From positions 1,010,852 to 1,074,851 of the forward strand of contig OZ244816.1 of assembly GCA_965220255.1 (NCBI GenBank): a stretch of 64,000 nt of DNA, given 5' to 3'. The notes under the pieces were generated by a model that saw only the letters and a list, made by a program, of their open reading frames with translations, was not told where the DNA came from and made no database searches. Made by a program: the position numbers and the translations under genes. Within the stretch, counting starts at the first letter, position 1; each line of letters begins with the position of its first letter. The stretch comes from Dehalococcoidia bacterium (GTDB lineage: Bacteria; Chloroflexota; Dehalococcoidia; Lucifugimonadales; VXLM01). Shown piece by piece: positions 418 through 12,802 of the stretch.

Positions 418-2094
418 ATGGGAGCACGGAGAGGATATATGCCAACGAATATCAACGACCCGGACGAGATCATTCGCGCGGTGGGACGGCAGGAGGAGCA
501 GACGCTTCCGCTGCGGGACCGCATGGAGGGGGACTACCGGCTGTACCGGTTGGAGCCGTTCCAGGAGGTGGACGGGTACGGGCAGCCGGTGGAGGGGTTT
601 CGGAGCTACACGTCGAACGCGCCGCAGGTGTACGCGGACAAGGTGATCCAGTGGATCGCACGGGCGGAGTTCGGCATCCGCATCCCGCAGGCGGGCAGGA
701 CGCGGGCGCAGCGGGCGGCGGACGCGCTGAAGGAGAAGTGGACGTGGGGGCTGATGCGGTCGGTCGACCGTCGCATCCAGCAGCGCATGGAGCCGCCGAT
801 GCGCGACCTGACGGCGTTCCACAACGTCGTGCGGGGGATGGTGGCCGGGCGCTGGCTGATGATGAACACGGCGTCGGGCGAGACGGTGGTGGACATGACG
901 CCGTGGGACCCCATGCACACCTACTGGGCCGTCGGGAGTGAGGGGCTGGAGTGGGCGTGCTACAAGGTCCGCAAGACGCGCGGGGAGATTCGCGCCGAGT
1001 ACGGCGTGGACGTCGGGGAGGACATCGACACGCTCAGGGTGGGAGCGCAGGACGGGGACGAGGCGGAACTCGAGGTGTACGATTTCTATGACCGGACGCA
1101 CAACACGGTGGTCGCGGGTAACAGGGTCGTGCTGAAGAGTCCGACGGCGCACGGGTCCGGACGGGTGCCTGTGGTGATCGTTCCGGTCGGGCCGGTGCCG
1201 CTGGTGCAGACCGACTCGGCGGCGGACTCGGTGTCCGACTACGGCGAGAGCGTGTTCAAGTCGAACCGTGAGATCTACGACAAGCACAACCTGATGATGT
1301 CGATCTTCCTGGAGCTTGCGGCGCGGGCGAGGAGGCCACCGCTGGGGGTGAAATCCCGCGACGGGCGTAAGACGCTGGACGAGGACCCGTACATGGAGGG
1401 GACGACGATCAGCATGAGCGAGGGAGACGACGTGGAGGCGTTCCCGCTGCTGAAGACGACGCAGGACGCGGCGGACCTGACGGGGCGGATATCGGGGGAA
1501 GTGCAGCGCGGGTCGATCCCGCACTCGGTCTACGGGGAGCTCCAGTTCCAGCTATCGGGTTTCGCGATCAACACGCTGCGGTCGGGCCTCGATTCGGTGC
1601 TGAGGCCGCGTCTGATCGCGGAGGCGTCGTTCTACTCGCAGGGGCTGGAACTGCTGACGGAGCAGTACGTTTCGGGGCGGTTCTCGGCGCTGACGGGCTC
1701 GGCAGGCGCGTCCTTCGATGCGGCGATGACGCCGGAGGTCATTTCGCGTGGCGGGACGCCGGAGATCAAGCTGGAGGGCAAGTTGCCGGAGGACGACACG
1801 GCGAAGTACGCGCAGGCAAGGATCGCGCGTGAGGGGACAGTGCCGCTGCTGCCGGACAGGTGGATATACGACAACATCCTCAAGATCCGGGACGCGGACA
1901 ACATCGAGCAGGCGGTGTCGGCGCAGGTGGCGCGACGCGGGACGGCGGAGTCGCTGATGCTGAACTCGATGATCGCGTCGGCCGACCAAGGGGACGACGA
2001 CTACGCGCGGCTGTACGAGAGCGAGTTGCGGCTGGCGAGGATGCGGAAGCTGCTGGAGCTGCAGGGGCTGCGGGAGGAGGAAGCGCGTTCGTGA
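418..2094 (+). CDS. Phage portal-like protein (putative)
   Basis: 558-aa ORF. The likelier start is ATG 439, behind GGAGAGGA at 428-435. Size and position at the head of a same-strand scaffold-like plus HK97-like capsid cluster fit a portal. I could not confirm any diagnostic motif by eye. Confidence 0.5.
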   Translation: MGARRGYMPTNINDPDEIIRAVGRQEEQTLPLRDRMEGDYRLYRLEPFQEVDGYGQPVEGFRSYTSNAPQVYADKVIQWIARAEFGIRIPQAGRTRAQRAADALKEKWTWGLMRSVDRRIQQRMEPPMRDLTAFHNVVRGMVAGRWLMMNTASGETVVDMTPWDPMHTYWAVGSEGLEWACYKVRKTRGEIRAEYGVDVGEDIDTLRVGAQDGDEAELEVYDFYDRTHNTVVAGNRVVLKSPTAHGSGRVPVVIVPVGPVPLVQTDSAADSVSDYGESVFKSNREIYDKHNLMMSIFLELAARARRPPLGVKSRDGRKTLDEDPYMEGTTISMSEGDDVEAFPLLKTTQDAADLTGRISGEVQRGSIPHSVYGELQFQLSGFAINTLRSGLDSVLRPRLIAEASFYSQGLELLTEQYVSGRFSALTGSAGASFDAAMTPEVISRGGTPEIKLEGKLPEDDTAKYAQARIAREGTVPLLPDRWIYDNILKIRDADNIEQAVSAQVARRGTAESLMLNSMIASADQGDDDYARLYESELRLARMRKLLELQGLREEEARS

Positions 2095-2213
2095 CGGGGG
2101 ATTCACCGCAGAGGGCGCAGAGAGCGCGGAGTGAAGAGAGAGGGGGAGGGTTTGGGTCTCCCGCCGGAAGTGTTGCCGGATACTTTCGTGCGGTCGCCTG
2201 AGCCGCCTGGGGT

Positions 2214-2241
2214 GTAGGGGCGATTCGCGAATCGCCCCTAC
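2214..2241. repeat. 28-nt perfect palindrome gtaggggcgattcgcgaatcgcccctac
   Basis: Perfect self-complementary 28-mer between the convergent portal-like and NHL genes; it overlaps the NHL stop codon. The identical 28-mer recurs at 25676-25703, and a variant with a different loop is at 36549-36577. Confidence 0.9.
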
Positions 2242-3263
2242 ATTGGTCTCTTGCCGACGGCGAGAGTGGCGCTGACTGCTGGGCCGTCGTCGCTGGAGAA
2301 GCCGTATGAGCCGTTTCCGGCGACCGTGGTGATGATGCCCGTCGTGGCGTCGACTTTGCGGACGCGGTAGTTGCCGGTGTCTACGACGTACAGGTTGCCG
2401 TCGCGGTCGAGGGCGATGCTGTAGGGCATGGAGAGGCTCGCCTTGCTTGCGGGGCCGCCGTCGCCGGAGAAGTCCGCCCTGCCCGTCCCGGCTACGGTCG
2501 TGATCGTGCCGTCGGGGGCGATCTTTCGGATGCGGTTGTTGGCGCCGTCGGCGATGTAGAGGCTGCCGTCGGAGTCGAGGGCGACATCGCGGGGGAGGGC
2601 TATCGCGGCCTGGCTGGCAGGGCCGCCGTCGCCGGAAAAGGCCTGCTTGCCGTTGCCTGCGACTGTTGTGATGGTGCCCGTCGCCATGTCTACCCTGCGA
2701 ATGCGGGAGTTGCGATGGTCGGCAATGTAGAGGTCGCCGCCTGCGCTGCAAGTCACTGCGATTGGTGAGGCGAGCATGGCCTCCGTAGCCGCACCGCCGT
2801 CTCCTGAGTACCCGTGTTCGCCGTTGCCCACGACGGTGGTGATGATTCCCGTGGAAGCGTCGACCCTGCGGATACGGTCGTTCTTGAGGTCGGCGATGTA
2901 GATGTTGCCGTGTCGGTCGAGGGTGGACCCGTGGGGCGATGCGAGTTGGGCGTGGATGGCGGGGCCGTCGTTGCCAGAGTAGCCCTCGGCGCCGCATCCG
3001 GCGACGGTCGCGATGGTGTTGATTGCGGCATCAATCTTTCGAATGCGGGCGTGGTGGGCGTCTGTGACGTAGAGATTGCCTGCACGATCACCCGTGACGC
3101 GCATGGGGTGTGAGGAGAACGAGGCTTGCGTGGCTGGGCCGCCGTCACCTAGGTCGCCAGTGCCTCCGCCCGCGATGGTGGTGATGACGCCTGTGGTCAG
3201 GTCGATCCTGCGGATGCGGCTGTTGCCGACGTCGGAGAAGTATATGGCGTCGTGGATGAACAT
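2238..3263 (-). CDS. NHL-repeat beta-propeller protein (possibly 5'-truncated)
   Basis: Six ~56-aa tandem repeats with the pattern GDGGPA..A.L..P.G[IV]A.D..GNLY[IV]AD..N.RIR[KR][IV]D..TG.ITT[VI]AG.G. The ORF begins mid-repeat and has no signal peptide. Confidence 0.8.
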   Translation of the reverse strand: MFIHDAIYFSDVGNSRIRRIDLTTGVITTIAGGGTGDLGDGGPATQASFSSHPMRVTGDRAGNLYVTDAHHARIRKIDAAINTIATVAGCGAEGYSGNDGPAIHAQLASPHGSTLDRHGNIYIADLKNDRIRRVDASTGIITTVVGNGEHGYSGDGGAATEAMLASPIAVTCSAGGDLYIADHRNSRIRRVDMATGTITTVAGNGKQAFSGDGGPASQAAIALPRDVALDSDGSLYIADGANNRIRKIAPDGTITTVAGTGRADFSGDGGPASKASLSMPYSIALDRDGNLYVVDTGNYRVRKVDATTGIITTVAGNGSYGFSSDDGPAVSATLAVGKRPM

Positions 3264-3335
3264 TGGGGGAGTGTATCACTTGGGGGTTCGTGCTTACCCC
3301 AAGGCTATTACTTCGATAATTGGAAGCTCAGCCGC

Positions 3336-3364
3336 TTGACAGGACCTTCCAAGTGGCGTAGAGT
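3336..3364 (+). promoter_or_regulatory. Putative promoter of the DGQHR island
   Basis: TTGACA (3336-3341), 17-nt spacer, TAGAGT (3359-3364), in a low-GC stretch. Confidence 0.35.
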
Positions 3365-3434
3365 ATGTACGTACGTCCTGCATAAACGTACATTCTTCTG
3401 TGATTTACGTATGTTGTCGCAGGGTGGACGTACA
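3365..3434 (+). promoter_or_regulatory. Operator-like array of ACGTA palindromic cores
   Basis: GTACGTACGT at 3367-3376, then ACGTA cores starting at 3386, 3407 and 3428 (exactly 21 bp apart). ATGTACGT (3365-3372) and ACGTACAT (3386-3393) are inverted repeats. The array lies between the -10 box and the SD of the 44-aa ORF. Confidence 0.4.
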
Positions 3435-3449
3435 GAAAGGAGGTAGGTA

Positions 3450-3584
3450 ATGGTCAACAAACAATATCACGACCAAGCTAGAGGCATCGTCTGTTTCGGA
3501 ATACGGCGCGGGCGACTATCGGCAAGGCAGCTCCAATGGCTGCTTGGCTATGTCGACCGATGCCGACGACAAGAAAAGCCCTAG
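3450..3584 (+). CDS. Small basic ORF (44 aa), hypothetical
   Basis: ATG at 3450 preceded by AAAGGAGG (3436-3443) at 6-nt spacing. Translation is MVNKQYHDQARGIVCFGIRRGRLSARQLQWLLGYVDRCRRQEKP. It is below the ORF-track cutoff and I recognise no homology. Confidence 0.25.
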   Translation: MVNKQYHDQARGIVCFGIRRGRLSARQLQWLLGYVDRCRRQEKP

Positions 3585-3705
3585 GACAAAGCCTAGGGCC
3601 CAGAAGCGACACGGATGGACGATTGTTGGTTCGGACATCCGTGCTCGCACCGTCCAAAGCATACCACACTGTAAGAACACATCTCAAAGACAAGGAGTAG
3701 AGTGA

Positions 3706-4833
3706 ATGATTAGGTTAAGAGCATTTAAGGGTCGCATAGGTATAACGGACTATTACCTTACCATGGCTACGTTTGGAGAGGTTGCACGTATGGTCAGGTA
3801 CAAGGAGAACGATCGTGATTGGCCTGCGGAATTACGACAGCAACGACCACTCAGCATGACACGCGTAAAGAACTTCATGGTCCCTTATCTGGTGGAGAAT
3901 CCTGACCACTTCTACAGTGCATTGGTCGTGGAGCACCTCCGCCCAGGTGAAACGACACATGATGTCAAATTCATCGAGGATCAAGACGACGAGAACACAG
4001 GATGGGTCGAAATGGAGGGCACTGAGATCCTGGAAACTCTTGATGGACAACACAGGCTAAAGTCGATTGAGTTGGCCGTCGAGGAGTCACCAGAGCTCGC
4101 AAGGGAGACGATAGCCGTGTTGATTGTCCCCCACAAGACTGTTGCGGTCGCCCAGCAGCGATTCTCGGACTTGAACAAGAACGCCAAACCGACTCCGAAA
4201 GCGCTGAATGTAATGTTCGAGCAGCGAGAAGAAGCAGCGTTACTAGCCAAGAACCTGGCCAAAAATTCAAAGATGTTGGATGGCCGAGTCAATTTGGCAA
4301 GCTCAAGTTTGTCAAAGCGGTCTCCCTACATAGTCACGATTTCCAGTCTGTACGAGGCGGTGAAAATAGTAGGGCCAGAATTGCAAGGGGACATCGACGC
4401 AAAGTCCGAGCAGTTGGTAAATTACTGGGACACTGCGTTAGCTGCGATGCCTGACTTCGAACGAATGGTGCAGGGAGAATTAACAGCCGGCGACATTCGA
4501 AGCAAGTACGTGTATGCAAGCGGTCTAGGATTTGAGGCATTAGCAGAAGTCATCCGCACTATACTGGATGACCACCCCGACAAATGGGAAACGGTCCTCA
4601 CAAACGGGCTTCCTCGGATAAATTGGGAACTTGGGAACTTTGAGTGGGAAGGGGTCGCACTGATCGCAGGACGAATCGCGATAGCCAGGGCTCCTCGGCG
4701 ACGGACGGCAACGTTGATTAAATACTTGCTTGGGCTACGGGTTGAAGAGAGCCACCTAGCAGACTTGAAAGAGGCCTACAGCAACTTGGGTCGGAACCTT
4801 CCTAGCCCATTGTTTGTCCCGAAGGCCGCATGA
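3706..4833 (+). CDS. DGQHR-domain protein (DndB-like, ParB/Srx-type fold)
   Basis: Literal DGQHR motif (LDGQHRLKSIELAV) and the downstream QRFSDLNKNAKP motif typical of DndB/DGQHR proteins. AAGGAG lies upstream of the ATG. About 50% GC versus higher-GC flanks. Confidence 0.8.
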   Translation: MIRLRAFKGRIGITDYYLTMATFGEVARMVRYKENDRDWPAELRQQRPLSMTRVKNFMVPYLVENPDHFYSALVVEHLRPGETTHDVKFIEDQDDENTGWVEMEGTEILETLDGQHRLKSIELAVEESPELARETIAVLIVPHKTVAVAQQRFSDLNKNAKPTPKALNVMFEQREEAALLAKNLAKNSKMLDGRVNLASSSLSKRSPYIVTISSLYEAVKIVGPELQGDIDAKSEQLVNYWDTALAAMPDFERMVQGELTAGDIRSKYVYASGLGFEALAEVIRTILDDHPDKWETVLTNGLPRINWELGNFEWEGVALIAGRIAIARAPRRRTATLIKYLLGLRVEESHLADLKEAYSNLGRNLPSPLFVPKAA

Positions 4834-4843
4834 GAACGCATGT

Positions 4844-4872
4844 TTGACATCGGTCTGGACGTGGGATAGACT
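4844..4872 (+). promoter_or_regulatory. Putative promoter between DGQHR gene and scaffold-like gene
   Basis: TTGACA (4844-4849), 17-nt spacer, TAGACT (4867-4872). Confidence 0.3.
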
Positions 4873-4934
4873 CGATTTGTGACGGTCGTCGTTCCGGTGG
4901 GATGGGGGCCGAAACTAAACAGAGAGACGCCAAG

Positions 4935-4977: not shown

Positions 4978-5030
4978 CCGGCATCAAGGACGGAGAGACA
5001 TGGTGGAGATTCAGTGAAAGGAGAGACGAG

Positions 5031-5570
5031 ATGGTGATGGCAACGGACATTGAGGAAGACGGGGCGATGGAGGGTGTGGACGAGTCGGAGGGCGAGGTCG
5101 ACGAGTTCGATCTGGCCGAGCTCCGAAGGGAGTTTGCAGGGCAAACTGAGACCGGTGTAGAGAGTCGGGAGGGTGACTCCGGCGGCGACGAGGGGGATTC
5201 CCAGGGGACTGATGAGGAGGAGTCGGAGGAGCTTTCGTCCGAAGGAGAGCCGTTCGGCTCGGACCGGGAGCGGTATCAGGCGGTGGTGCGCGCGGCGCGG
5301 GAGCACGGGCTGGGAATCGACGACCTCGAGGAGCTAGAGCGTGCGGAGAGCGCGGAGGACGTCGAGCGACGGGCGCGGGGCATGGCGGAGCGGCGGACGC
5401 TGAATCGGAGGGTGGAGGCGCTGGAAAGGCAGCTTGCGCCGGTGCAGCAGTTCGACAGCAACCGTCCGAGCGCCCCGTCGGCCGGCTCCGACGAGACTTG
5501 GATCGACCGGTACATGGCGGGAGACCGGAGCGCGCGAGCGGTTGCAGCGGCGCGACGGGCATTCGATTAG
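5031..5570 (+). CDS. Acidic scaffold-like protein (putative)
   Basis: Start chosen at ATG 5031, behind GAAAGGAGAG and downstream of the terminator that lies inside the longer 4902 ORF. The N-terminal half is highly acidic (D/E-rich) and the C-terminal half is helical and charged. It sits between the portal-like and capsid-like ORFs. Confidence 0.4.
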   Translation: MVMATDIEEDGAMEGVDESEGEVDEFDLAELRREFAGQTETGVESREGDSGGDEGDSQGTDEEESEELSSEGEPFGSDRERYQAVVRAAREHGLGIDDLEELERAESAEDVERRARGMAERRTLNRRVEALERQLAPVQQFDSNRPSAPSAGSDETWIDRYMAGDRSARAVAAARRAFD

Positions 5571-5603: not shown

Positions 5604-6476
5604 ATGCCACAAACAACGAGCACAGGAAACCTGGAGAAGGCCCAGAGGACGATGATCGGGCAGATGCTGTACACGACGGAGCACAACGCGCCCGCGATGG
5701 CGCTGGTGACGCACATGAGGCTGCGGCGCGGGGCGTCGAGCGTGGATGTGCCGAAGGCGGGGCAGATGACGGTGTCGGACCTGGTCGAGGGACAGGACAT
5801 CACGGACGAGCAGAGCCTCGGTATGGAGTTCACGACGCTGACCACGTCCGAGGTGGGCGCGAAGGTGGTGGTGACGGACAAGCTGGTGCGGCAGATGCAG
5901 CCGGACGTGTTCAAGGTGATCGGGCGGCAACTCGGCGACGGCATGGCGCGCAAGAAGGACCAAGACGTGATCGCGCTGTACGGGTCGCTGAACGAAGGGA
6001 CTGCACTGGGGGCTGCGGGCGCGACGTTCAACGTCGCCCATGCGGCGGCGGCGTACACGCACGCAGTGGCCAACAAGTTCGGGACGAAGCTCTCGATCGT
6101 CCACCATCCGAACGCACTGTACAGCATCATCAACTCCGGCGCGATTACGCCGGGGGCCAGCGGTCCGGTCGACGCGGGGTGGTCGCGCGACCTGCTCCAG
6201 CGGTTCTTCGCGGGACTCGCGCCGGTGGGCGGAGTGCCGATGTTCCACGACGGCAACATCGAGGTGGACAACGATGGCGACGCGGTGGGCGTGATCGCCG
6301 ACGAGGGCGCGCTCGTCGTGCTGGAGTCGGTGACGATGCGGACGGAGCGTCAGCGGGACGCCTCGCTGCGGGGCACGGAGGTCGTCATCACGGCGGACTA
6401 CGGGGTCTTCGAGCTCGACGACTCTCGCGGCGCGCCGCTCAAGTACGACGCGACCCCGCCGTCGACATCGGAGTAG
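5604..6476 (+). CDS. Major capsid protein, HK97-fold-like (putative)
   Basis: 290 aa, with GAAAGGAG upstream. Composition and layout resemble Phage_capsid/HK97-type coat proteins (e.g. KVVVTDKLVRQM..DVFKVIGRQLGDGMARKKDQDVI). Positioned after a scaffold-like ORF. Recognition by eye only. Confidence 0.55.
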   Translation: MPQTTSTGNLEKAQRTMIGQMLYTTEHNAPAMALVTHMRLRRGASSVDVPKAGQMTVSDLVEGQDITDEQSLGMEFTTLTTSEVGAKVVVTDKLVRQMQPDVFKVIGRQLGDGMARKKDQDVIALYGSLNEGTALGAAGATFNVAHAAAAYTHAVANKFGTKLSIVHHPNALYSIINSGAITPGASGPVDAGWSRDLLQRFFAGLAPVGGVPMFHDGNIEVDNDGDAVGVIADEGALVVLESVTMRTERQRDASLRGTEVVITADYGVFELDDSRGAPLKYDATPPSTSE

Positions 6477-6487
6477 GCACCCCCTCT

Positions 6488-6730: not shown

Positions 6731-7108
6731 ATGGACCGGAAGACGCCCGCGACACTGTCGGAAGAATTGGCGAAGCTCGGCTACACGTGGGAGTACCTCG
6801 ACAAGTGGCAGCCGAAGGTCGACATGTACTGGCACGTCGACCAAGTGAACGTCGCGGGTGAGGTGGTCGGGAGGGCGGGCGCGATGCTGCCCAACCTGCC
6901 CGGCCACCCCGACCATCAGGCGAGGTACGCACGGCGAGGCCTGCTGCCGTGGCCGCCGGGCAAAGAGTGCGAGTGCAAGGGCTGTCGCGAGCGGTACGGG
7001 ACCGAGCGCACGGGCCGCAAGTTCATGTCGCCGGATGACGTGGAACGAGAGGTGGCGAGCGACAGGCTGTTTGGGGGTGGGGGCGCGGGTTCCAAAGCCA
7101 AGGAGTAG
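6731..7108 (+). CDS. Hypothetical protein (phage-module ORF)
   Basis: 125 aa. ATG 6731 is preceded by AGGAGGA (6718-6724). It is the only non-repeat part of the 5498-7108 ORF. No function recognised. Confidence 0.5.
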   Translation: MDRKTPATLSEELAKLGYTWEYLDKWQPKVDMYWHVDQVNVAGEVVGRAGAMLPNLPGHPDHQARYARRGLLPWPPGKECECKGCRERYGTERTGRKFMSPDDVEREVASDRLFGGGGAGSKAKE

Positions 7109-7263: not shown

Positions 7264-7671
7264 TTGGCTGAGTCCCTAAGTCAAGTTGTGCCGGTGATGG
7301 TCGCGGCCTTGGTATGTGATACGGCTGCTACTGAGCCCCACTCTAACAAGAAGAGTCTCATTGGCATCTTCGACAGACTGGAGGCGGTTTCTTTCCCGAC
7401 TCAAAGGATACTCTCTCTTTACTTGAAGCTTACTGATGCCGAGGGGCACTATGAGATGGAGGTGCGGTTCGTTCACCTGAACACCGGAAAAGTGTTGGCC
7501 AAGGCCGAAGGCAAACTCAATCACTCTGATCGGTTAACCTCGGCCGAGATGCTTATCCCGTCACTACCTTTTGAGTTTGGTGAGCAGGGGCGGTATGAAT
7601 TCCAAGTCTGGGCCAATTCGATGTTTCTTGGTTCCACAACCATCGACGCCATCCTGCGATCATCGAAATAG
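7264..7671 (+). CDS. Hypothetical small beta-rich protein
   Basis: 135-aa ORF from TTG 7264 (the ATG at 7297 is an alternative start). Low GC. Vaguely resembles uncharacterised DUF-type proteins with the pattern ..CD.A....gK.SLIGIFD.. No function known to me. Confidence 0.45.
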   Translation: MAESLSQVVPVMVAALVCDTAATEPHSNKKSLIGIFDRLEAVSFPTQRILSLYLKLTDAEGHYEMEVRFVHLNTGKVLAKAEGKLNHSDRLTSAEMLIPSLPFEFGEQGRYEFQVWANSMFLGSTTIDAILRSSK

Positions 7672-7682
7672 GAGATTGAACG

Positions 7683-8120
7683 ATGGTAACAACAGATGCT
7701 GAGATAAAGACTCTAGATTCGCCCGCTACCCAATCGGAGGCCAGTGACCATCCCATCATGGGAGAGTGGGGCTCCCTAAACCCTTCCACACCCCCTCTTT
7801 CCGAAGATGATGGAATAGTAGACATGGGTCCGGCATTTGAGGCAACTAGCCTTCTCGGAACATTAAACGATGCACGGCTAAGAGTTCGGCAGCCGTTCCA
7901 AGTGACTATGGCCACAGAGAATGACGACTTCATTGCGGAGGCCGTGGAGATCGACGAGTTCGGCTTTGGCAAGAACCCATCTTCGGCGGTCCGAGATCTG
8001 CAGTTGACGATCGTCGAACTCTACTTCACGCTCAAGAGCGAGGCAGATCGTCTCGGGCCCGATCTCAAGCGCGTGTTCGGCGTGCTCGAATCAAAGCTCG
8101 ATCTCACCCATGACGATTAA
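7683..8120 (+). CDS. HicB-like antitoxin candidate
   Basis: 145 aa. The C-terminal half (FQVTMATENDDFIAEAVEIDEFGFGKNPSSAVRDLQLTIVELYF) resembles the HicB/UPF0150 N-domain pattern. It overlaps the next ORF by 11 nt. Confidence 0.35.
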   Translation: MVTTDAEIKTLDSPATQSEASDHPIMGEWGSLNPSTPPLSEDDGIVDMGPAFEATSLLGTLNDARLRVRQPFQVTMATENDDFIAEAVEIDEFGFGKNPSSAVRDLQLTIVELYFTLKSEADRLGPDLKRVFGVLESKLDLTHDD

Positions 8121-8379
8121 GGCACGGCAGTTTGATCGATTAGTTCAGAAGCTGGGCCTCAAAACCCGAAGCAGCGACCACCTTCTCGCTTGGTTTGAAC
8201 ATGAAGGCAAGATCATCACCAGAACCAAGCGATCTCGCGGTTCCTCCAGTGACCTGCCGATGCAGCACAGCATTCGGCAACAGCTCAAGATGAACGAGCG
8301 AGAGTTCCAAAGCGCCGTCGGCTGTACCCTAACGAAAGAGGACTACCTGAAGATTCTTCGTATGAAGGGGCTGCTGTAG
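8110..8379 (+). CDS. HicA-like toxin candidate
   Basis: 89 aa. FDRLVQKLGLKTRSSDHLLAWFEHEGKIITRTKRS resembles the HicA/YcfA pattern (h..L.k.G...r..gSH). The 11-nt overlap with the upstream ORF is typical of TA pairs. Confidence 0.35.
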   Translation: MTIKARQFDRLVQKLGLKTRSSDHLLAWFEHEGKIITRTKRSRGSSSDLPMQHSIRQQLKMNEREFQSAVGCTLTKEDYLKILRMKGLL

Positions 8380-8395
8380 TCCGGGTTTCCCCGAT

Positions 8396-8424
8396 TTGAC
8401 ATACCAGCACATCCGTCCTATTCT
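8396..8424 (+). promoter_or_regulatory. Putative promoter restarting the phage-like module
   Basis: TTGACA (8396-8401), 17-nt spacer, TATTCT (8419-8424). Confidence 0.3.
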
Positions 8425-8516
8425 TGATTAGTAACCACCCCTGACCGGCACTGAGCGGGTCGGGAGAATAACCGAATACGACAGAGATGCCGGAGCGCGT
8501 CCCAGTTTAGAAAGAG

Positions 8517-8957
8517 TTGGGGCGCGCTTTGATGTTTAACGAAGGGATGATGACGAAGAACTCCGCTGTCATGTCTGCGGCACGGGATCTGTCGGCGGGT
8601 ATGGAGACGGCGTCGGGGCTGTGGGTGCCGGAGGGGTCGGCGGTGGAGATGCCGTATGTGGCGGGGCCGGACGGAGACACGGGCAGAAGTGTGGTCGTAC
8701 ACCGGTTCCGGTTCCACGATCCACGGACGGGACGGAGCCAGGTCTGCCACGTTCCGGCCCATCCCGATGCCGCTCCGGCCGAGATCGAGGACATGGCGGC
8801 GGAGGCTCTCGAGAGTTTTTTGACCGACGCTCACGAGCTGGGTCCGCTGCACCGTCATACGCCGGAGCAGCGCAAGGAGATCGGCGCCGGAATTCGGGAG
8901 TTCCGCGAGTACGCGGCACGGCGACGGCAGAGTGCCATGAACAAGGTCTATTTCTAG
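8517..8957 (+). CDS. Hypothetical protein (phage-module ORF)
   Basis: 146-aa ORF on the module strand with normal (non-Arg/Pro-biased) composition. No function recognised and the start is uncertain. Confidence 0.4.
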   Translation: MGRALMFNEGMMTKNSAVMSAARDLSAGMETASGLWVPEGSAVEMPYVAGPDGDTGRSVVVHRFRFHDPRTGRSQVCHVPAHPDAAPAEIEDMAAEALESFLTDAHELGPLHRHTPEQRKEIGAGIREFREYAARRRQSAMNKVYF

Positions 8958-9011
8958 GACGTTTCACATCATTCCCGCGGAAGAGGACCTTTGCACAACC
9001 TACCCAACGGC

Positions 9012-9146
9012 CTGTCATTCCGAGCGCAGAGAGGAATCTAAGGCGTCCTGAGGGACCTCATTCGGGCCGTTTCAGCTACGGAACTTCACTTGGAGGGCAA
9101 CAACTTTAGATTCCTCATTCCGCTCCGCTTCATTCGGAATGACAGG
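9012..9146. repeat. Short MITE-like hairpin element (gtcattccgagcg...gaatcta arms)
   Basis: Left arm ctgtcattccgagcgcagagaggaatctaagg and right arm ctttagattcctcattccgctccgcttcattcggaatgacagg are inverted. Same arm family as the inner arms of the composite repeat, but with a different short core. Confidence 0.7.
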
Positions 9147-9233
9147 CGCCGGGGTTATGCAGATTCCCGCCCCATATCGTGGTACGGGGTGACGTTCTTT
9201 CGCGGGAATGACGAATTGAGCTGGAGCTTGGCA

Positions 9234-10094
9234 ATGCACCATCGAGAAAGGACATTCAACATGACAGGCACACACGGACGGACACGGGAACAGCTACGCA
9301 AGAGCATCGGGCGGAACTTGATCGGGCACCAGCTGATCGTCTCGGCGGCAACGTCGGGAGGGGACACGTCAGGCCTCATCGACGATACGCTGCTCGGCGG
9401 GGACGATAACTACATCGGGTGGTGGCTCGTCGCGACTTCGTCCGGGGCGAATGCCGGGGAGATACGGCGCGTGTCGGATTACGACTCCGCGACCTCTCGT
9501 TTGAGTTGGACGCGACCGCTGCCGGAAGCAACGGCCGTCAAAGACTCGTACGAGCTGTGGCCTTCCGAGTATCCGCCAGAGGTCATACACGACTACATCA
9601 ACCAGGCCATCGGCGAGGCGGCGGGGCACATCTACGAGCCGGTGGAGGATTTTTCTCTTAATGCGGGCGGGGGGCTGGCACAGTTCACGATACCAGAGGA
9701 CATCGACGCCATCTCGAAGGTGGAGGTCAGGGTTTCTACTGCGTCGCGGTCCGATGTCGATGCGAACACCGCCGTGTGGCGGACGCTGCCACGGCACTTC
9801 TGGGGAATCGACAAGGGGGAATGTGTCTTGACGCTCACGGACGGGGGCAGGCGTCTGGCGGGCGACGCTCCCCTCAAGCTCGTTGGAGGCATGGAGCCGT
9901 CGTCGCTCCTGGCCGACGCCTCGACGACCGTGGTGCCGGACGAGTTCGTTATCGCACGGGCAACGGCGCTGGCACTACTCGCCTCGCCCGACCTGTCGGA
10001 GTCCGGCAGGGAGGCATGTGCAAGGTGGGACGCCCGGACGCGAGAAGCCCGCGCGGCATTCCCGCTGCTGACGAACGTGCGAAGGGTCGGATAG
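9234..10094 (+). CDS. Phage structural protein candidate (adaptor/tail-proximal), hypothetical
   Basis: Start at ATG 9234 or 9261; the upstream part of the 9090 ORF only translates repeats. About 280 aa, on the module strand, immediately precedes the 639-aa ORF. Confidence 0.45.
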   Translation: MHHRERTFNMTGTHGRTREQLRKSIGRNLIGHQLIVSAATSGGDTSGLIDDTLLGGDDNYIGWWLVATSSGANAGEIRRVSDYDSATSRLSWTRPLPEATAVKDSYELWPSEYPPEVIHDYINQAIGEAAGHIYEPVEDFSLNAGGGLAQFTIPEDIDAISKVEVRVSTASRSDVDANTAVWRTLPRHFWGIDKGECVLTLTDGGRRLAGDAPLKLVGGMEPSSLLADASTTVVPDEFVIARATALALLASPDLSESGREACARWDARTREARAAFPLLTNVRRVG

Positions 10095-10153
10095 CAACAC
10101 GAGGCGTCCCAGTCTTTCGAAAGAGGACCGGGACGACGGACTGGAGAAAATAC

Positions 10154-12073
10154 ATGGCGAAGATCGTAGTCAATCAACAAGAGGTATCCCTGGACGGAAA
10201 GCGGTACCGGATCGCGCCGAGGCGAGGGGCCAGCGTGCGGTCGTTCATCGCGTCGCGGTATCCGGGCAAGCTGGTGCTGGGCGACGTGGGGTCGGACTCC
10301 GACCCGAGGCGCAGCGTGATCAAGTGGACCGATCAGCGCGGCGGGCTGGGAGTGTATAAGCTCGATGCGCGAGACCCGGAACTCGACAGGTGCACGTATA
10401 CGTCGTGTGACGTCCGGTACAAGGGAGGGATCACCCTGCCACCGCTCTCACGGTACACCACGGGCGCCGAACTGTCGGGGGACATCACGGCCATCGGGGA
10501 ACTGAACGACGCATACGGTGACAGCGAAATCTACGCGGCGTGGGGCGGAGGGACGGACGTCCGCAAGTACGACAGCAGGACCGACTCGTGGGGCGAGTCG
10601 CTGCACACGCTGCCGGGCGCGGCGTCGGACGCGGTCACGATCTCACACCCCGGCACTCGTGGAAGCCACGCGCAGTATCTCGTCTTCGCGCACGGGGACG
10701 ACGGGTTCACGTACACTTCGGACGGGACGGCCTTCAGCACCAACGGGAGGGACGCAAAGTTCCTTGCGTACTGGAACGACCGCCTGTGGGGCATAGACGA
10801 TGGCGGGAGACTGTGGCAGGGGCCTGCGGGGCCGCTGAGAACAAGCAGGAGCTCGTGCGTCGACGACGCGGTGCTTCCGCTGCCGGCGGGATACGTCACG
10901 TCGCTGTTCGTCGGGCCGGACCGTTCGGGCAGGCCGATTCTCTACGCGGGGACGAAGGTAGGGCTGTACGCCCACGACGACGCGAACAACCGGTTCGTGG
11001 AGACTCCGGCCAGGTGGCCGAAGCACGACACCGGCGGGTCGGGCGCAACGGCGTGGAGGGGAGTCGTCTACGCGCCGGTTGCACGGCACGTCTATGCCTA
11101 TTCGCCGGGGCGTCGCACATTCGACATTGCCTTCCCTCGACGGGGTGAGGACGGCCTGTTCACAACGGCAGGCGCCAGGGGCGGCATCACCAAGCTCCTG
11201 CCGACCCATCTCGACCTCGCGGTGGTGATGGACGGCCTGGGCGCGCCGTTCACGCCCGCCGACGTCTTCCTCTGGGACGGCGTCGGCGTGAGTCACGCTC
11301 ACACCGTCCTCTCATGGATGTCGATAACGGCGGCGTACGTCTCCAACGCCTATGGGAAATACCGGCTGTGGTGGGCGACCGACGAGGGGCTGTTCGGAGC
11401 ATCACCGAACATAGGCTATACGGAGCTGCCCGATTCGCTGACAAACTCGCGATTCGGTCCCGCGGTGTCCTACGCCACGGGCTACCCTGACGCGAACAGC
11501 TTCCTCCGCGCGTCGCACGTCTACCCGTGGTTCGACGCGGGACAGCCCGAGGTGACCAAGACGGCGCTGCGGCTGAGGGTGGAGACGCAAGACTGCACGG
11601 CGACCGAGGTGATCGAGGTGTACGCGGCGGTCGACTACGCAGACGCGTCCCTGGCACTGGTCGGCACGATCACATCGGACGGAACGACAACATTCAATTT
11701 GCCGAATGAGACGACACCGAACGGCATCGACTTCAAGGCCATTCAGATCGAATGCCGGTTGAAGAGGGGGACGGACGAGACGAAGACACCCGTGCTCGTT
11801 TCAATGGCGTTGGAGTACCGCAAGAAGATTCCGACCAAGTACGGGTTCACCTTCGACGTTGCGCTGAACCAGGAGCATGGCGGACGCACGCCGAAGGACA
11901 TGCGCTCTGATCTGGCGGAGGCCATCGAGAGCACGAACCTCGTCGAGTTCACGTTCCGGGACGACGCAGGCACGACGCGGACGCACTATGTGGACGTGGT
12001 CAGCGTGTCGGGCGGCGAGGAGACCGGCCTCGACGAGCGGGGCACGAGCAGGGTGACGGTGGAGGAGATTTAG
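10154..12073 (+). CDS. Large phage structural protein candidate (tail tube/nozzle-type), hypothetical
   Basis: 639 aa from ATG 10154; the 9776 extension overlaps the preceding gene. Beta-rich. Its position after portal, scaffold and capsid mirrors the podovirus gp11/gp12 order. No motif verified. Confidence 0.45.
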   Translation: MAKIVVNQQEVSLDGKRYRIAPRRGASVRSFIASRYPGKLVLGDVGSDSDPRRSVIKWTDQRGGLGVYKLDARDPELDRCTYTSCDVRYKGGITLPPLSRYTTGAELSGDITAIGELNDAYGDSEIYAAWGGGTDVRKYDSRTDSWGESLHTLPGAASDAVTISHPGTRGSHAQYLVFAHGDDGFTYTSDGTAFSTNGRDAKFLAYWNDRLWGIDDGGRLWQGPAGPLRTSRSSCVDDAVLPLPAGYVTSLFVGPDRSGRPILYAGTKVGLYAHDDANNRFVETPARWPKHDTGGSGATAWRGVVYAPVARHVYAYSPGRRTFDIAFPRRGEDGLFTTAGARGGITKLLPTHLDLAVVMDGLGAPFTPADVFLWDGVGVSHAHTVLSWMSITAAYVSNAYGKYRLWWATDEGLFGASPNIGYTELPDSLTNSRFGPAVSYATGYPDANSFLRASHVYPWFDAGQPEVTKTALRLRVETQDCTATEVIEVYAAVDYADASLALVGTITSDGTTTFNLPNETTPNGIDFKAIQIECRLKRGTDETKTPVLVSMALEYRKKIPTKYGFTFDVALNQEHGGRTPKDMRSDLAEAIESTNLVEFTFRDDAGTTRTHYVDVVSVSGGEETGLDERGTSRVTVEEI

Positions 12074-12075
12074 CC

Positions 12076-12360
12076 ATGAGACTGATACACGGACAGGAAT
12101 CGGTGACGGCGGGCACGCCCGCCCAGCTTACGAGCGAGCCGCTGAGGGCGGTGAAGCTCTGGATAAGGTACGCGGACGGGGCCGAAGGCGTCGCACGCCT
12201 TTCGGGAGCGACGGACAGCGAGGCGGGCGTCGAGATCGGTGAACAACTCGCGGAATTCGACTTCACGGCGGCAGGCAGGGGCAGCGTAGACGCCTCCGGG
12301 CTGTACGTGGACGTCTCGACCGGCACGCAGACCGTCACCTGGACGCTGATGGTGGCCTGA
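12076..12360 (+). CDS. Hypothetical 94-aa protein (phage-module ORF)
   Basis: Starts 3 nt after the previous stop. Tight packing typical of phage modules. Confidence 0.4.
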   Translation: MRLIHGQESVTAGTPAQLTSEPLRAVKLWIRYADGAEGVARLSGATDSEAGVEIGEQLAEFDFTAAGRGSVDASGLYVDVSTGTQTVTWTLMVA

Positions 12361-12361
12361 G

Positions 12362-12802
12362 ATGATACCGATCGACAGTACGGACAAAGGCGTGCTCTCG
12401 TGGGCCATAGGCATCCTCATCACGGTCAATCTCGGCGTGCTTGGATGGTCGGTCGCTGTGCTGGACGGGAAGGCGGACGACGCAGCGGTGACGCGCATCG
12501 AGCGGCAGGCGGAGGAGATCGAGCGTCGCGACCGTGACTATCTGGTTCGCTCCCAGATCGAGGACCTCGTGCGGACCGGGTCGCCCTACGTGAGCGACAA
12601 ACCGAAGATCGAGGACCAGCTCGACAAGCTGGAGGCGGACGTCGCCCGCAACGAGGGGGACATCCGCGCCACAACGCGCTCGCTCGTGCGGATCGAGACG
12701 CAGGTCGCGCAGATACGGGAGACGCTGCAAAAGCTGGACGGCAAGCTCGACGAGATCACGGAGGCGCTCGCCCGCGCCGGGGCGCTGGCGCGTCGGGAGT
12801 GA
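12362..12802 (+). CDS. Membrane-anchored coiled-coil protein, hypothetical
   Basis: N-terminal TM helix (WAIGILITVNLGVLGWSVAVL) followed by a heptad-like charged helix. Starts 2 nt after the previous stop. Last ORF of the module. Confidence 0.45.
   Translation: MIPIDSTDKGVLSWAIGILITVNLGVLGWSVAVLDGKADDAAVTRIERQAEEIERRDRDYLVRSQIEDLVRTGSPYVSDKPKIEDQLDKLEADVARNEGDIRATTRSLVRIETQVAQIRETLQKLDGKLDEITEALARAGALARRE

What the first reader, a model, noticed from the sequence alone, without database searches (positions are those of the whole stretch)
418..12802. Podovirus-style head/tail gene module lacking visible lysis, integration or replication genes and colonised by host repeats
Seen directly:
- Same-strand order is a 558-aa portal-like ORF, a 179-aa acidic ORF, a 290-aa HK97-like capsid ORF, a 125-aa ORF, [island], then ORFs of 146, ~286, 639, 94 and 146 aa (the last TM + coiled coil).
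- Junctions are 2-3 nt (12073/12076, 12360/12362).
- The order resembles the portal-scaffold-capsid-tubular A/B arrangement of T7-like podoviruses (established gene order, by memory).
- The module stops abruptly at 12802 against an ECF sigma operon. No integrase, tRNA, att-like repeat, lysin or tail fibre is visible.
- Its intergenic gaps (1-334, 6480-6700, 8960-9215) are filled with the same REP/MITE families found between housekeeping genes elsewhere in the window. This implies long residence in this genome.

Inference: it is either a decaying cryptic prophage or a retained, possibly domesticated particle-forming module (GTA-like or tailocin-like). The individual promoters at 348, 4844 and 8396 would keep the segments expressed despite the insertions.
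Basis: partly seen in the sequence, partly recalled or inferred. Interest (0 to 1): 0.55.

Follow-up and report, generated by a model that had tools for sequence, protein, structure and literature searches.

The report
Domesticated podovirus head-and-tail-hub gene module
A bacterium (a Dehalococcoidia from uncultured-community assemblies) keeps only the shell, portal and stubby-tail genes of an ancient virus, and at least 14 related species have kept them largely intact at a fixed chromosomal site behind DNA-damage-type promoters, so this looks like a co-opted virus-like particle rather than a dying prophage.

Summary
Window 348-12802 encodes a portal (fold confirmed), an acidic scaffold-like protein, an HK97-family capsid protein, two small virion-module proteins, an adaptor-like protein, a podovirus tail nozzle (fold confirmed) and two small lineage-specific proteins.

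No terminase, integrase, tRNA, fibre, ejection, replication or recognisable lysis gene is present here or in the flanks of related genomes.

- **Conservation.** The module sits between mfd and an ECF sigma operon in 14 species-level Dehalococcoidia genomes.
- **Selection.** dN/dS is 0.11-0.24, like neighbouring host genes. Its dS tracks that of mfd, and its codon usage matches the host.
- **Origin.** Free relatives are about 40 kb marine metagenomic phages, at most 50% identical. 55 of 57 carry TerL next to the portal gene, so terminase loss is derived.
- **Regulation.** Three conserved promoters each carry a GAAC-N4-GTTC (Cheo/LexA-type) box, and two conserved leader hairpins follow.

Best reading: a domesticated, probably SOS-controlled, particle-forming remnant. 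Whether it packages DNA with a terminase supplied in trans, or instead interferes with related phages, is unresolved.

It is a new variant of a known kind (GTA or defective-prophage particle). Interest is moderate to high.

The parts
348..376 (+). Promoter P1 (TTGACG-17-TATATT) for the portal gene. A GAAC-N4-GTTC palindrome (359-370) fills the spacer next to the -10 element.
   Evidence: One search gives the consensus match. One search shows the promoter aligned in 16 genomes: half-sites are invariant in 15 and the 4-nt spacer varies. Searches list the exact sites.
418..2094 (+). Portal protein (558 aa; the start may be the ATG at 439). It lacks the proline-rich C-terminal tail seen in relatives of 591-622 aa.
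   Evidence: One search found more than 1126 homologues. One search is the alignment; the AF2 model (pLDDT 69) gives 50 best PDB matches that are all phage portals, E down to 7e-13.
2238..3263 (-). NHL-repeat beta-propeller gene inserted between the portal and scaffold operons. It is conserved at this spot in 13 of the 14 species.
   Evidence: TEN_NHL, E = 6e-36; 72-85% identity; absent in L017; dN/dS 0.21.
3264..4833 (+). Low-GC insertion carrying an orphan DndB/DGQHR gene (3706-4833). It is present only in this genome among those compared.
   Evidence: DndB, E = 4e-74; GC 0.51; no counterpart in L001-L018.
4834..4872 (+). Promoter P2 (TTGACA-17-TAGACT, 4844-4872) for the scaffold-capsid operon. 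The box GAACGCATGTTT (4834-4845) overlaps the -35 element.
   Evidence: One search shows AGAACGCATGTTTGAC essentially invariant in 15 genomes. One search lists it as a one-mismatch site. It fits the extended consensus CGAACRNRYGTTYC quoted in PMC2248561.
4923..4982 (+). Conserved leader element 1: AGAGACGCC, then a 16-bp hairpin (4934-4969), then a T-run. It looks like a terminator or attenuator upstream of the scaffold start codon.
   Evidence: terminator-like site; conserved in 15 genomes, with almost no variation to test covariation; only two copies of the motif in the window.
5031..5570 (+). Scaffold-like acidic protein (179 aa, pI 4.26).
   Evidence: One search gives the composition; the C-terminal 90 residues are homologous to the phage gene just upstream of the capsid gene (hhalign 98% and 94%); stop codons in other species within 4902-5030 show that stretch is leader, not coding.
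5604..6476 (+). Major capsid protein of the HK97-fold family (290 aa).
   Evidence: PF25209, 47 bits against a cut-off of 27; PHROG major head; 58-61% identical to the capsid gene of the 40-kb phages; 85-98% identical across 14 species.
6731..7108 (+). Small virion-module protein (125 aa). It is homologous to the 120-aa gene that follows the capsid gene in free phages.
   Evidence: hhalign 96%, E = 4e-9; dN/dS 0.11.
7264..8379 (+). Variable island of low-GC cargo: DUF6941 (7264-7671), a 145-aa ORF (7683-8120) and an overlapping 89-aa ORF (8110-8379).
   Evidence: DUF6941, E = 1e-14; presence varies between species; GC 0.53.
8396..8424 (+). Promoter P3 (TTGACA-17-TATTCT) for the tail-hub operon. 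A degenerate GAAC-N4-GTYC box (8407-8418) sits in the same spacer position as in P1.
   Evidence: Most species read GAAC-N4-GTCC. The window copy has two mismatches.
8483..8531 (+). Conserved leader element 2, a paralogue of element 1: AGAGATGCC plus a hairpin (core 8497-8525) that abuts the ATG at 8532.
8532..8957 (+). Small virion-module protein (141 aa from the ATG at 8532; 146 aa from the TTG at 8517). It is homologous to a 144-aa phage gene.
   Evidence: hhalign 96.6%, E = 6e-10; dN/dS 0.17.
9261..10094 (+). Putative portal-nozzle adaptor (277 aa). It is a homologue of the 422-aa phage gene that immediately precedes the nozzle gene, with an in-frame loss of an internal domain of about 140 aa.
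   Evidence: hhalign 99.9%. One search shows the domain present in the phage and in L015 but deleted in the other 12 species. The adaptor role is inferred from position only; no PDB sequence match was found.
10154..12073 (+). Tail nozzle/hub protein (639 aa, beta-propeller).
   Evidence: the AF2 model (pLDDT 85) best matches Pa223, VP1, Pan3, P22 gp10, Pam1 and T7 gp12 nozzle proteins. (propeller). (37% identical to the 623-aa phage gene).
12076..12360 (+). Conserved 94-aa protein of unknown role, tightly coupled to the nozzle gene.
   Evidence: 77-89% identity; dN/dS 0.17; no phage homologue found.
12362..12802 (+). Conserved 146-aa protein with an N-terminal hydrophobic helix and a long coiled coil. 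It is restricted to this lineage. Possible roles are a plug or needle, or a membrane protein.
   Evidence: sequence; 81 homologues, all at least 64% identical and none on contigs with the phage gene layout; some carry PF10805; dN/dS 0.12; only weak coiled-coil matches.

Best explanation
**What it is (shown).** The region is the structural core of an ancient podovirus prophage: portal, scaffold, HK97-type capsid, two small virion proteins, an adaptor-like protein and a tail nozzle, plus two lineage-specific small proteins.

**How it has evolved (shown).**
- It has been inherited vertically at one chromosomal site, between mfd and an ECF sigma operon, through at least 14 species of Dehalococcoidia.
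- Purifying selection on it is as strong as on neighbouring host genes.
- It lacks TerS/TerL, the block of large genes between portal and scaffold, tail fibres, replication, integration and recognisable lysis genes. Its free relatives carry these.

**How it is controlled.**
- Shown: it is organised in three transcription units, each with a conserved sigma-70-type promoter.
- Shown: each promoter holds a GAAC-N4-GTTC-type palindrome in or next to its core elements. Two of the units also have a conserved, paralogous leader hairpin.
- Inferred: the palindromes are LexA (SOS) operators, so the module is switched on by DNA damage.
- Inferred: the hairpins add a second, attenuator-like control.

**What it does (inferred).**
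- The products assemble a fibre-less capsid with a portal and a stubby tail hub, that is, a domesticated phage-like particle.
- In podoviruses the adaptor and nozzle normally dock only on DNA-filled heads. Their retention therefore suggests that a terminase acts in trans. It could be encoded elsewhere in the genome (GTA-like or PBSX-like) or brought by an infecting relative.
- The benefit to the cell is not established.
For: **Identity of the parts.**
- Portal fold.
- Nozzle fold.
- Capsid family.
- Homology of the scaffold, the 125-, 146- and 286-aa proteins to phage genes at the same positions.

**Conservation and synteny.**
- 14 species-level genomes carry the same gene order.
- P-II, Amt and Mfd lie upstream in 9 of them.
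- The ECF sigma lies downstream.

**Selection and residence time.**
- dN/dS is 0.11-0.24, against Mfd 0.13, P-II 0.15 and Amt 0.06.
- dS of the portal, capsid and 146-aa genes correlates with dS of mfd (rho 0.57-0.76) and has the same magnitude.
- GC3 is 0.77-0.91, like host genes. Free phages have 34-49% GC overall.

**Loss of terminase is derived.**
- 55 of 57 IMG/VR relatives have TerL within 400 nt upstream of the portal gene.
- No TerL or TerS homologue is found in the 64-kb window or in any module locus.
- Viral relatives are all at most 50% identical, while the chromosomal clade is at least 74% identical.

**Regulation.**
- P1, P2 and P3 and their boxes are conserved across species.
- The window has only three exact boxes and all are intergenic.
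- One box, with a second one-mismatch box 6 nt after it, lies directly upstream of a TIGR03916/COG4277-type radical-SAM repair gene. That operon type is reported as an SOS regulon member (PMC8565304).
- GAACn4GTTC and CGAACRNRYGTTYC are the Gram-positive LexA consensus (PMC2248561).
- From my own knowledge, not checked here: Dehalococcoides LexA binds this same motif (Fernandez de Henestrosa et al. 2002, J Bacteriol).
Against: - No particle, transcript or protein has been observed.
- Without a terminase, canonical head filling and tail docking should not occur, and I could not search whole genomes for one.
- No lysis genes were recognised.
- Two of the 14 species carry a possibly inactivating lesion: a stop codon in the L011 portal gene and a frameshift in the L015 nozzle gene. 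The function may therefore be dispensable, or these may be assembly errors.
- The LexA assignment rests on motif logic only. No lexA or recA promoter of this organism was available as a positive control. P3 in this window has two mismatches. Exact-box counts in the window are not by themselves significant (3 observed against 1.15 expected).
- The leader hairpins show conservation but almost no covariation.
Confidence: 0.6

Rival explanations
1. **Anti-phage interference module.** The resident portal, scaffold, capsid, adaptor and nozzle proteins are made when a related 40-kb podovirus infects. Expression could be triggered by the phage's own late-gene antiterminator acting on the conserved leader terminators, or by infection-induced damage. 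The resident proteins then co-assemble with the phage's proteins. The resulting particles lack fibres and ejection proteins and are dead, which lowers the burst size.
For: - A related phage family exists and lysogenises Dehalococcoidia. L019 carries TerL, portal, the giant gene and the capsid gene next to tRNA genes.
- The missing functions are exactly those that make a virion infectious.
- The adaptor has lost an internal domain.
- Terminator-like leaders downstream of promoters resemble phage late-operon control.
- The inter-operon gaps collect defence-type cargo: DndB, methyltransferases, PIN and a toxin-antitoxin-like pair.
Against: - The module proteins are only 37-61% identical to those of known free relatives, which may be too divergent to co-assemble.
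- The Cheo-type boxes point to host SOS control rather than phage-specific induction.
- No known defence family matches the structural genes.
- No experimental precedent was examined here.
Confidence: 0.2
2. **True gene transfer agent.** A terminase and lysis functions encoded elsewhere in the chromosome complete the module, which packages random host DNA into podovirus-like particles released on SOS induction.
For: - Inheritance is vertical, selection is purifying, and self-mobility genes are absent.
- Retention of the adaptor and nozzle implies that heads are filled.
- From my own knowledge: RcGTA also has essential genes scattered outside its main cluster.
Against: - No terminase lies in the cluster, in the 64-kb window or in 10-kb flanks of 14 genomes. 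Every characterised GTA head-tail cluster I know of includes TerL.
- No ejection or internal-core proteins and no fibres are present, so DNA delivery to a recipient is hard to explain.
Confidence: 0.15
3. **Neutral, slowly decaying cryptic prophage.** The remnant has no function. The ORFs look intact only because too little time has passed.
For: - Essential phage functions are missing.
- Repeats and foreign genes have invaded the gaps.
- Two species have a lesion in one gene each.
- The window's portal has lost its C-terminal tail and the adjacent 93-aa gene.
Against: - Synonymous divergence between species reaches 0.3-0.7, yet dN/dS stays at 0.11-0.24 for eight genes, equal to mfd.
- Promoters, operators and leaders are conserved while the flanking sequence is not.
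- Insertions occur only between operons, never inside them.
Confidence: 0.04
4. **Ordinary complete prophage.** The integrase, terminase and lysis genes lie just outside the window.
For: The window starts only 417 nt upstream of the portal gene, so this genome's own upstream sequence was not seen. Look-ups of its contig failed.
Against: - In 10 related genomes with 10 kb of upstream sequence, the portal promoter is preceded by a variable island of 1.7-6.7 kb and then mfd.
- That island holds HNH, methyltransferases and restriction-like or secreted proteins. No terminase or integrase was found there.
- Downstream is a host ECF sigma operon.
Confidence: 0.01

Closest known systems
Gene transfer agents of the RcGTA type (Rhodobacter capsulatus and other Alphaproteobacteria)
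   Same: - It is a chromosomal phage structural cluster with no integrase or replication genes.
- It is inherited vertically and kept under purifying selection across species.
- It appears to be controlled by host-type promoters.
   Different: - RcGTA is siphovirus-like and its cluster starts with TerS/TerL and includes a protease, tail tube and tape measure.
- This module is podovirus-like (adaptor plus nozzle) and has no terminase in the cluster.
- Its promoters carry LexA-type boxes, whereas RcGTA is under CtrA/GafA control (from my own knowledge).
- It lies in Chloroflexota.
SOS-inducible defective prophages that make phage-like particles (Bacillus subtilis PBSX and relatives)
   Same: - It is a conserved, non-infectious prophage remnant.
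- Its late genes sit behind damage-responsive control.
- Retention across related species suggests a benefit.
   Different: - PBSX is a contractile-tailed particle with terminase, a full tail and lysis genes, and it has its own repressor (Xre).
- This module has none of these.
Virion module of T7-like and P22-like podoviruses (portal, scaffold, capsid, adaptor gp11/gp4, nozzle/hub gp12/gp10)
   Same: - Portal and nozzle folds match.
- The scaffold gene lies directly before the capsid gene.
- The adaptor-position gene lies directly before the nozzle gene.
   Different: - There are no fibres or tailspikes, no internal core or ejection proteins and no terminase.
- Sequence similarity to characterised phages is nil: tblastn against 50,697 GenBank phage records finds nothing.
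Uncultured marine phages of about 40 kb (for example MN694034.1 and 524 IMG/VR contigs) and the L019 Dehalococcoidia prophage
   Same: They are true homologues of the portal (35-50%), scaffold C-terminus, capsid (48-61%), the 120-, 144- and 422-aa genes and the nozzle (37%).
   Different: - They are complete genomes with TerS-TerL, four genes including a 1386-1782-aa giant between portal and scaffold, a tail fibre (PHROG 892) and replication genes.
- The free (non-integrated) phages have low GC (34-49%); L019 has 62%.
Capsid-forming phage-inducible chromosomal islands (cf-PICIs)
   Same: They are chromosomal elements that encode their own capsid and portal but not a complete tail, and depend on functions supplied in trans.
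   Different: - cf-PICIs are mobile, with an integrase, replication genes, their own small terminase and att sites.
- This module has none of these and co-diverges with the chromosome.

Membership tests
Gene transfer agent | Phage-like structural gene cluster fixed in the chromosome, vertically inherited and under purifying selection | tested here: met
Gene transfer agent | Large terminase that packages host DNA | tested here: not met
   No TerL or TerS homologue in the window or in 14 module loci with 10-kb flanks. 55 of 57 free relatives have TerL next to the portal gene. An unlinked copy elsewhere in the genome could not be searched for.
Gene transfer agent | Particles are released and transfer random host DNA to recipients | not testable with these tools
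   Needs particle purification and DNA analysis. No lysis, fibre or ejection genes were recognised in the locus.
Intact or recently integrated prophage | Integrase, att repeats or a tRNA target, terminase, lysis and replication genes, and foreign base composition | tested here: not met
   No tRNA. No such genes in the locus or in relatives' flanks. GC and GC3 are host-like.
Podovirus (T7/P22-type) virion module | Dodecameric-portal fold protein | tested here: met
   all 50 best PDB matches are portals, with podoviruses first (probability 1.00, E = 7e-13).
Podovirus (T7/P22-type) virion module | HK97-fold major capsid protein preceded by a scaffold gene | tested here: met
   Pfam PF25209 above its cut-off and PHROG major-head matches. 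The acidic 179-aa protein is homologous to the phage gene preceding the capsid gene. The capsid structure was not modelled.
Podovirus (T7/P22-type) virion module | Beta-propeller nozzle/hub protein | tested here: met
   Pa223, VP1, Pan3, P22 gp10, Pam1 and T7 gp12.
Podovirus (T7/P22-type) virion module | Adaptor (gp11/gp4-like) between portal and nozzle | tested here: inconclusive
   The 277-aa protein is homologous to the phage gene abutting the nozzle gene. No structure was predicted and no PDB sequence match was found.
Podovirus (T7/P22-type) virion module | Tail fibres or spikes and internal core/ejection proteins | tested here: not met
   Homologues of the phage fibre (PHROG 892) and of the 572-, 309-, 104- and 1782-aa block are absent.
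Tailocin (R- or F-type) | Tail tube, sheath and baseplate genes without a capsid or portal | tested here: not met
   A capsid and portal are present. No tube, sheath or baseplate family matched.
LexA (SOS) regulon of the Gram-positive/Chloroflexi type | Cheo-type operator (C)GAAC-N4-GTTC(G) overlapping the promoter | tested here: met
   The P1 box is exact in 15 of 16 genomes, with 13 of 15 spacers fitting RNRY. The P2 box fits GAAC-RNRY-GTTY in 14 of 15 genomes (L011 reads GCAC). P3 is degenerate. The consensus is quoted from PMC2248561.
LexA (SOS) regulon of the Gram-positive/Chloroflexi type | LexA binding and induction by DNA damage | not testable with these tools
   The only support is indirect. 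The same motif, in tandem, lies upstream of a COG4277-type repair gene in the window.
Phage satellite (PICI / cf-PICI) | Integrase, replication module, own small terminase and helper-induced excision | tested here: not met
   None were found. The element co-diverges with mfd.
Encapsulin nanocompartment | HK97-fold shell gene without portal or tail, next to cargo with a targeting peptide | tested here: not met
   Portal, scaffold, adaptor-like and nozzle genes accompany the shell gene.

The most novel reading that the evidence does not exclude
A previously undescribed class of domesticated phage particle. It would be a terminase-less, fibre-less podovirus capsid with portal and tail hub, under LexA control plus a private leader-RNA switch, fixed in a clade of Dehalococcoidia (Chloroflexota). 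From memory of the MAG names, which I did not verify, these are sponge symbionts. It would be either the first GTA-like system in Chloroflexota and the first built on a podovirus, or a capsid-based device with a new role such as phage-assembly poisoning or cargo or DNA release during stress in the host.
Probability: 0.3. Interest if true: 0.8.

Novelty: new variant of a known kind. Interest (0 to 1): 0.62.

Why it matters
- **A different starting point for domestication.** Domesticated phage particles (GTAs, tailocins, PBSX-like elements) are known from few lineages and are built almost always on long-tailed phages. This would be a podovirus-derived, terminase-less case in Chloroflexota. It is conserved over at least 14 species and 206 capsid variants in public assemblies, and is annotated only as 'hypothetical protein'.
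- **A host link for an uncultured phage family.** The module and the L019 prophage tie a large family of about 40-kb marine phages (524 IMG/VR contigs, with no Pfam or PHROG model for their portal or nozzle) to Dehalococcoidia hosts.
- **A testable regulatory circuit.** The conserved promoters, operators and leaders define a compact circuit that can be tested by EMSA, reporter fusions and metatranscriptome mapping in an uncultured group.
- **A minimal particle.** If the particle forms, it raises the question of what a head with a tail hub, but without terminase, fibres or ejection proteins, is selected for.

Tried and rejected
**This genome's own upstream sequence.** Six exact-product look-ups failed, so I relied on relatives.

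**Searches that found nothing.**
- Sequence searches of the portal, nozzle, capsid, adaptor-like, 94-aa and 146-aa proteins against PDB gave nothing useful.
  - The nozzle hit was only a generic propeller.
  - The 94-aa match to designed armadillo proteins (E = 4e-7) looks compositional and was not used.
  - The 146-aa matches are coiled-coil noise.
- tblastn of the portal and nozzle against 50,697 GenBank phage records gave no match.
- Rfam has nothing for the leaders.
- PADLOC matches only DndB and the methyltransferase. The LmuB hit to the 146-aa protein is coiled-coil bias.
- Literature searches for a described GTA or conserved capsid module in sponge or SAR202 Chloroflexi found nothing relevant. 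The Dehalococcoides LexA paper is not in the library.

**Ideas considered and dropped.**
- An ECF-sigma reading of GGAAC...GTT in P1. The spacing is 4 nt, not 16-18.
- The 222-aa ORF from 4902 as the scaffold start. Its first 43 codons are the leader and carry stop codons in six other species. The dN/dS near 1 for that ORF is an artefact of this.
- A stop codon in the L016 adaptor-like gene. It lies upstream of the true start.
- Searching for an unlinked TerL with the protein database. Thousands of phage TerLs would swamp the 120-row output.

Full report
**1. The observation**

- The true start of the acidic protein is the ATG at 5031, giving 179 aa with pI 4.26.
- The longer ORF from 4902 runs through a conserved non-coding leader. 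That stretch contains stop codons in six other species.
- The tight junctions, the ECF sigma and anti-sigma genes at 13014-14499 and the absence of any tRNA in 64 kb are all confirmed.
- The three promoter-like sites at 348, 4844 and 8396 are confirmed.
- Dispersed repeats in the gaps are confirmed. For example, 54-261 matches 55284-55491 at 89%.

- Two genes separate the portal from the scaffold gene: an NHL-repeat gene on the minus strand (2238-3263) and a low-GC orphan DndB gene (3706-4833).
- The island at 7264-8379 holds a DUF6941 gene and two small overlapping ORFs.

**2. What the proteins are**

- **Portal (558 aa).** It has no Pfam, PHROG, NCBIfam or PDB sequence match. It has more than 1126 homologues. 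An AlphaFold model built on 40 of them (pLDDT 69) gives phage portals as all 50 best PDB matches, headed by the podoviruses Pan3 and SU10 and including T7, P22 and N4.
- **Capsid (290 aa).** It matches Pfam Phage_capsid_4 above the curated cut-off and several PHROG major-head families.
- **Nozzle (639 aa).** The model (pLDDT 85) best matches podovirus nozzle/hub proteins: Pa223, VP1, Pan3, P22 gp10, Pam1 and T7 gp12.
- **Other proteins, by profile comparison.**
  - The scaffold C-terminus is homologous to the phage gene that precedes the capsid gene.
  - The 125-aa protein is homologous to the 120-aa gene that follows the capsid gene.
  - The 146-aa protein at 8532-8957 is homologous to a 144-aa phage gene.
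  - The 286-aa protein is homologous to the 422-aa gene that abuts the nozzle gene, which is the adaptor position. That role is inferred from position, not tested.
- **The last two proteins (94 and 146 aa).** No phage homologue was found for either. The 146-aa protein, which has an N-terminal hydrophobic helix and a coiled coil, has only 81 relatives, all in the same bacterial clade.

**3. Where it comes from**

- The closest free relatives are phage-sized contigs of about 40 kb from marine metagenomes, such as MN694034.1, and 524 IMG/VR contigs. All are at most 50% identical in the portal.
- Their gene order is TerS, TerL, portal, 572 aa, 309 aa, 104 aa, a giant of 1638 aa or more (1782 aa in the portal-anchored contigs), scaffold, capsid, 120, 249, 144, three small genes, 422, nozzle, 134, tail fibre, then more tail and replication genes.
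- TerL ends within 400 nt of the portal gene in 55 of 57 viral loci that extend far enough upstream.
- One Dehalococcoidia MAG (L019) carries what looks like a complete prophage of this family. It has TerL, portal, the giant gene and the capsid gene next to tRNA genes. The family therefore infects this class.
- None of these proteins is found in 50,697 GenBank phage records.

**4. The module is old, fixed and maintained**

- **Distribution.** A scan of one genome per GTDB species found the same module in 14 further species, all labelled Dehalococcoidia or Chloroflexota MAGs. Portal identity is 74-95%. Several MAG names (APA_bin_48, SB0661_bin_13) suggest sponge symbionts to me. That is from memory and was not verified.
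- **Gene order.** It is the same everywhere: portal, NHL gene (minus strand), scaffold, capsid, 125 aa, a variable island, 146 aa, adaptor-like, nozzle, 94 aa, 146 aa.
- **Left flank.** In nine genomes the upstream side is P-II, Amt and Mfd, followed by a variable 1.7-6.7 kb stretch. That stretch holds HNH, methyltransferases and restriction-like or secreted proteins. It never holds a terminase or integrase. The most divergent lineage (L017, L022) has arg genes on the left instead, again with no terminase.
- **Selection.** Pairwise dN/dS is 0.13 for the portal, 0.11 for the capsid, 0.11 for the 125-aa protein, 0.17, 0.24 and 0.11 for the tail-hub proteins, and 0.17 and 0.12 for the last two. 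The neighbouring host genes give 0.13 (Mfd), 0.15 (P-II) and 0.06 (Amt).
- **Co-divergence.** Synonymous divergence of the module genes matches that of mfd pair by pair, with Spearman rho of 0.57-0.76.
- **Composition.** GC3 is 0.77-0.91, like host genes. DndB and the island have GC3 near 0.6, and the free phages have 34-49% GC overall.
- **Pattern of insertions.** Foreign genes and repeats are found only between the three operons.
- **Signs of decay.**
  - The window's portal lacks the proline-rich C-terminal tail and the adjacent 93-aa gene.
  - L011 has a stop at portal codon 190.
  - L015 has a frameshift in the nozzle gene.
  - Twelve species have lost an internal domain of about 140 aa from the adaptor-like protein. 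The phage and L015 keep it.

**5. Control elements, which are a new observation**

- **P1.** Homology between species begins exactly at the portal promoter. In 15 of 16 genomes it reads TTGAC(G/T)-N5-GAAC-N4-GTTC-TAT. The half-sites are invariant and the 4-nt spacer varies, and 13 of 15 spacers fit RNRY.
- **P2.** It carries AGAACGCATGTTTGAC. This fits GAAC-RNRY-GTTY and overlaps the -35 element. It is essentially invariant in 15 genomes.
- **P3.** It has GAAC-N4-GTCC in the same spacer position as P1. The copy in this window is more degenerate.
- **What the motif resembles.** It matches the Cheo box, the LexA consensus of Gram-positive bacteria (PMC2248561). From my own knowledge it also matches the LexA box of Dehalococcoides.
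- **Other copies in the window.** Only three exact copies exist and all are intergenic.
  - One, followed by a second one-mismatch copy, lies 20 nt upstream of a TIGR03916/COG4277-type radical-SAM plus HhH gene. That operon type is reported as an SOS regulon member in several phyla (PMC8565304).
  - The other exact copy lies 79 nt upstream of a methyltransferase-HNH fusion gene.
- **Inference.** LexA control of the module is an inference from these points.
- **Leader hairpins.** P2 and P3 are each followed by a conserved, mutually similar leader: AGAGAYGCC, then a long GC-rich hairpin.
  - In leader 1 a T-run follows the hairpin.
  - In leader 2 the hairpin abuts the start codon.
  - These are the only two copies in the window.
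  - There is no Rfam match.
  - They are almost invariant, so covariation cannot support or refute the fold.

**6. Most likely mechanism**

- **Shown.** This is a vertically inherited, selection-maintained podovirus head and tail-hub gene set, stripped of packaging, ejection, adsorption, replication and integration genes, and arranged in three conserved transcription units.
- **Inferred.**
  - DNA damage relieves LexA repression.
  - The leaders add an attenuator-type check.
  - The proteins assemble a fibre-less phage-like particle.
- **The terminase problem.** In podoviruses the adaptor and nozzle dock on DNA-filled heads. Keeping them under selection therefore argues that a terminase acts in trans. 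It would be encoded elsewhere (GTA- or PBSX-like) or brought in by an infecting relative. In the second case the module could act as an assembly poison. I could not search whole genomes, so this remains open.
- **My estimates.**
  - Domesticated particle module with its function unresolved: 0.6.
  - Interference with related phages: 0.2.
  - True GTA: 0.15.
  - Neutral remnant: 0.04.
  - Hidden complete prophage: 0.01.

**7. Comparison and novelty**

- It works like a GTA or a defective-prophage particle, but it fails the terminase criterion for a GTA within the locus.
- It is not a tailocin, satellite, encapsulin or intact prophage.
- It shares folds and local gene order with T7/P22-type virion modules, but it lacks fibres and core proteins.
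- I found no description of it in the literature library. NCBI labels the capsid protein as hypothetical.
- I rate it a new variant of a known kind, with moderate to high interest.

Noticed in passing
window 25597-25626 and 24234-25577 (minus strand): Tandem Cheo-type boxes (GAACGTGTGTTC exact, then GGACACATGTTC) lie 20-38 nt upstream of a radical-SAM plus HhH gene matching TIGR03916 (E = 8e-82, below its curated cut-off). This is probably a LexA-regulated repair operon, and it is the best internal calibration for the LexA box in this organism.
   Followed up: partly
window 21861-23273 (minus strand) and 23352-23363: A fused N6/N4 DNA methyltransferase plus HNH endonuclease gene (470 aa) has an exact GAAC-N4-GTTC site 79 nt upstream. 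Its spacer (GGTT) does not fit RNRY.
   Followed up: partly
window 3264-4833: An orphan DndB/DGQHR gene sits in a 0.51-GC insertion with no dndACDE nearby. It is absent from all 14 related genomes at this position, so it is a recent acquisition between the portal and scaffold operons.
   Followed up: partly
window 7683-8379: Overlapping 145-aa and 89-aa ORFs look like a toxin-antitoxin pair. The 89-aa protein is 97-98% identical in L013 and L014 (dN/dS 0.02), while its partner is only 68-69% identical. No family matched.
   Followed up: partly
window 54-316, 51377-51608, 55191-55491, 14772-14864, 9011-9041, 6588-6618: At least two families of short dispersed repeats (MITE/REP-like) occupy intergenic gaps both inside the module and among housekeeping genes.
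   Followed up: partly
L019 4400-21590 (contig CBDFJU010000004.1): An apparently complete prophage of the same phage family lies in another Dehalococcoidia MAG. It has TerL (56% identical to the marine phage TerL), a portal, a 1386-aa giant gene and a capsid gene, with tRNA-His and tRNA-Ile just upstream. It links an uncultured marine phage family to Dehalococcoidia hosts.
   Followed up: partly
L015 8440-8490 and 9915-9965: The portal promoter with its box is duplicated about 1.5 kb upstream in this species (TTGACTCATTAGGAACGTGAGTTCTATT). What the second copy drives was not determined.
   Followed up: no
L011 10566-10568; L015 19585-19600: There is an in-frame stop at portal codon 190 in L011 and a frameshift in the nozzle gene of L015. 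Each is either real lineage-specific inactivation or an assembly error.
   Followed up: partly
L002-L004, L020, L024-L103: This large family of marine phages of about 40 kb has a portal, nozzle and most virion genes with no Pfam or PHROG model. It carries a 1638-1782-aa (or longer) gene, with DUF7831 in some members, between the portal and scaffold genes.
   Followed up: partly
L007 7927-8967, L018 8626-9678, L013 7011-7895, L014 7184-8995, L016 6990-9382: The stretch between mfd and the portal promoter is a variable hotspot. It holds DNA methyltransferases, restriction-like proteins, HNH and secreted proteins that differ from species to species, as in a defence island.
   Followed up: partly
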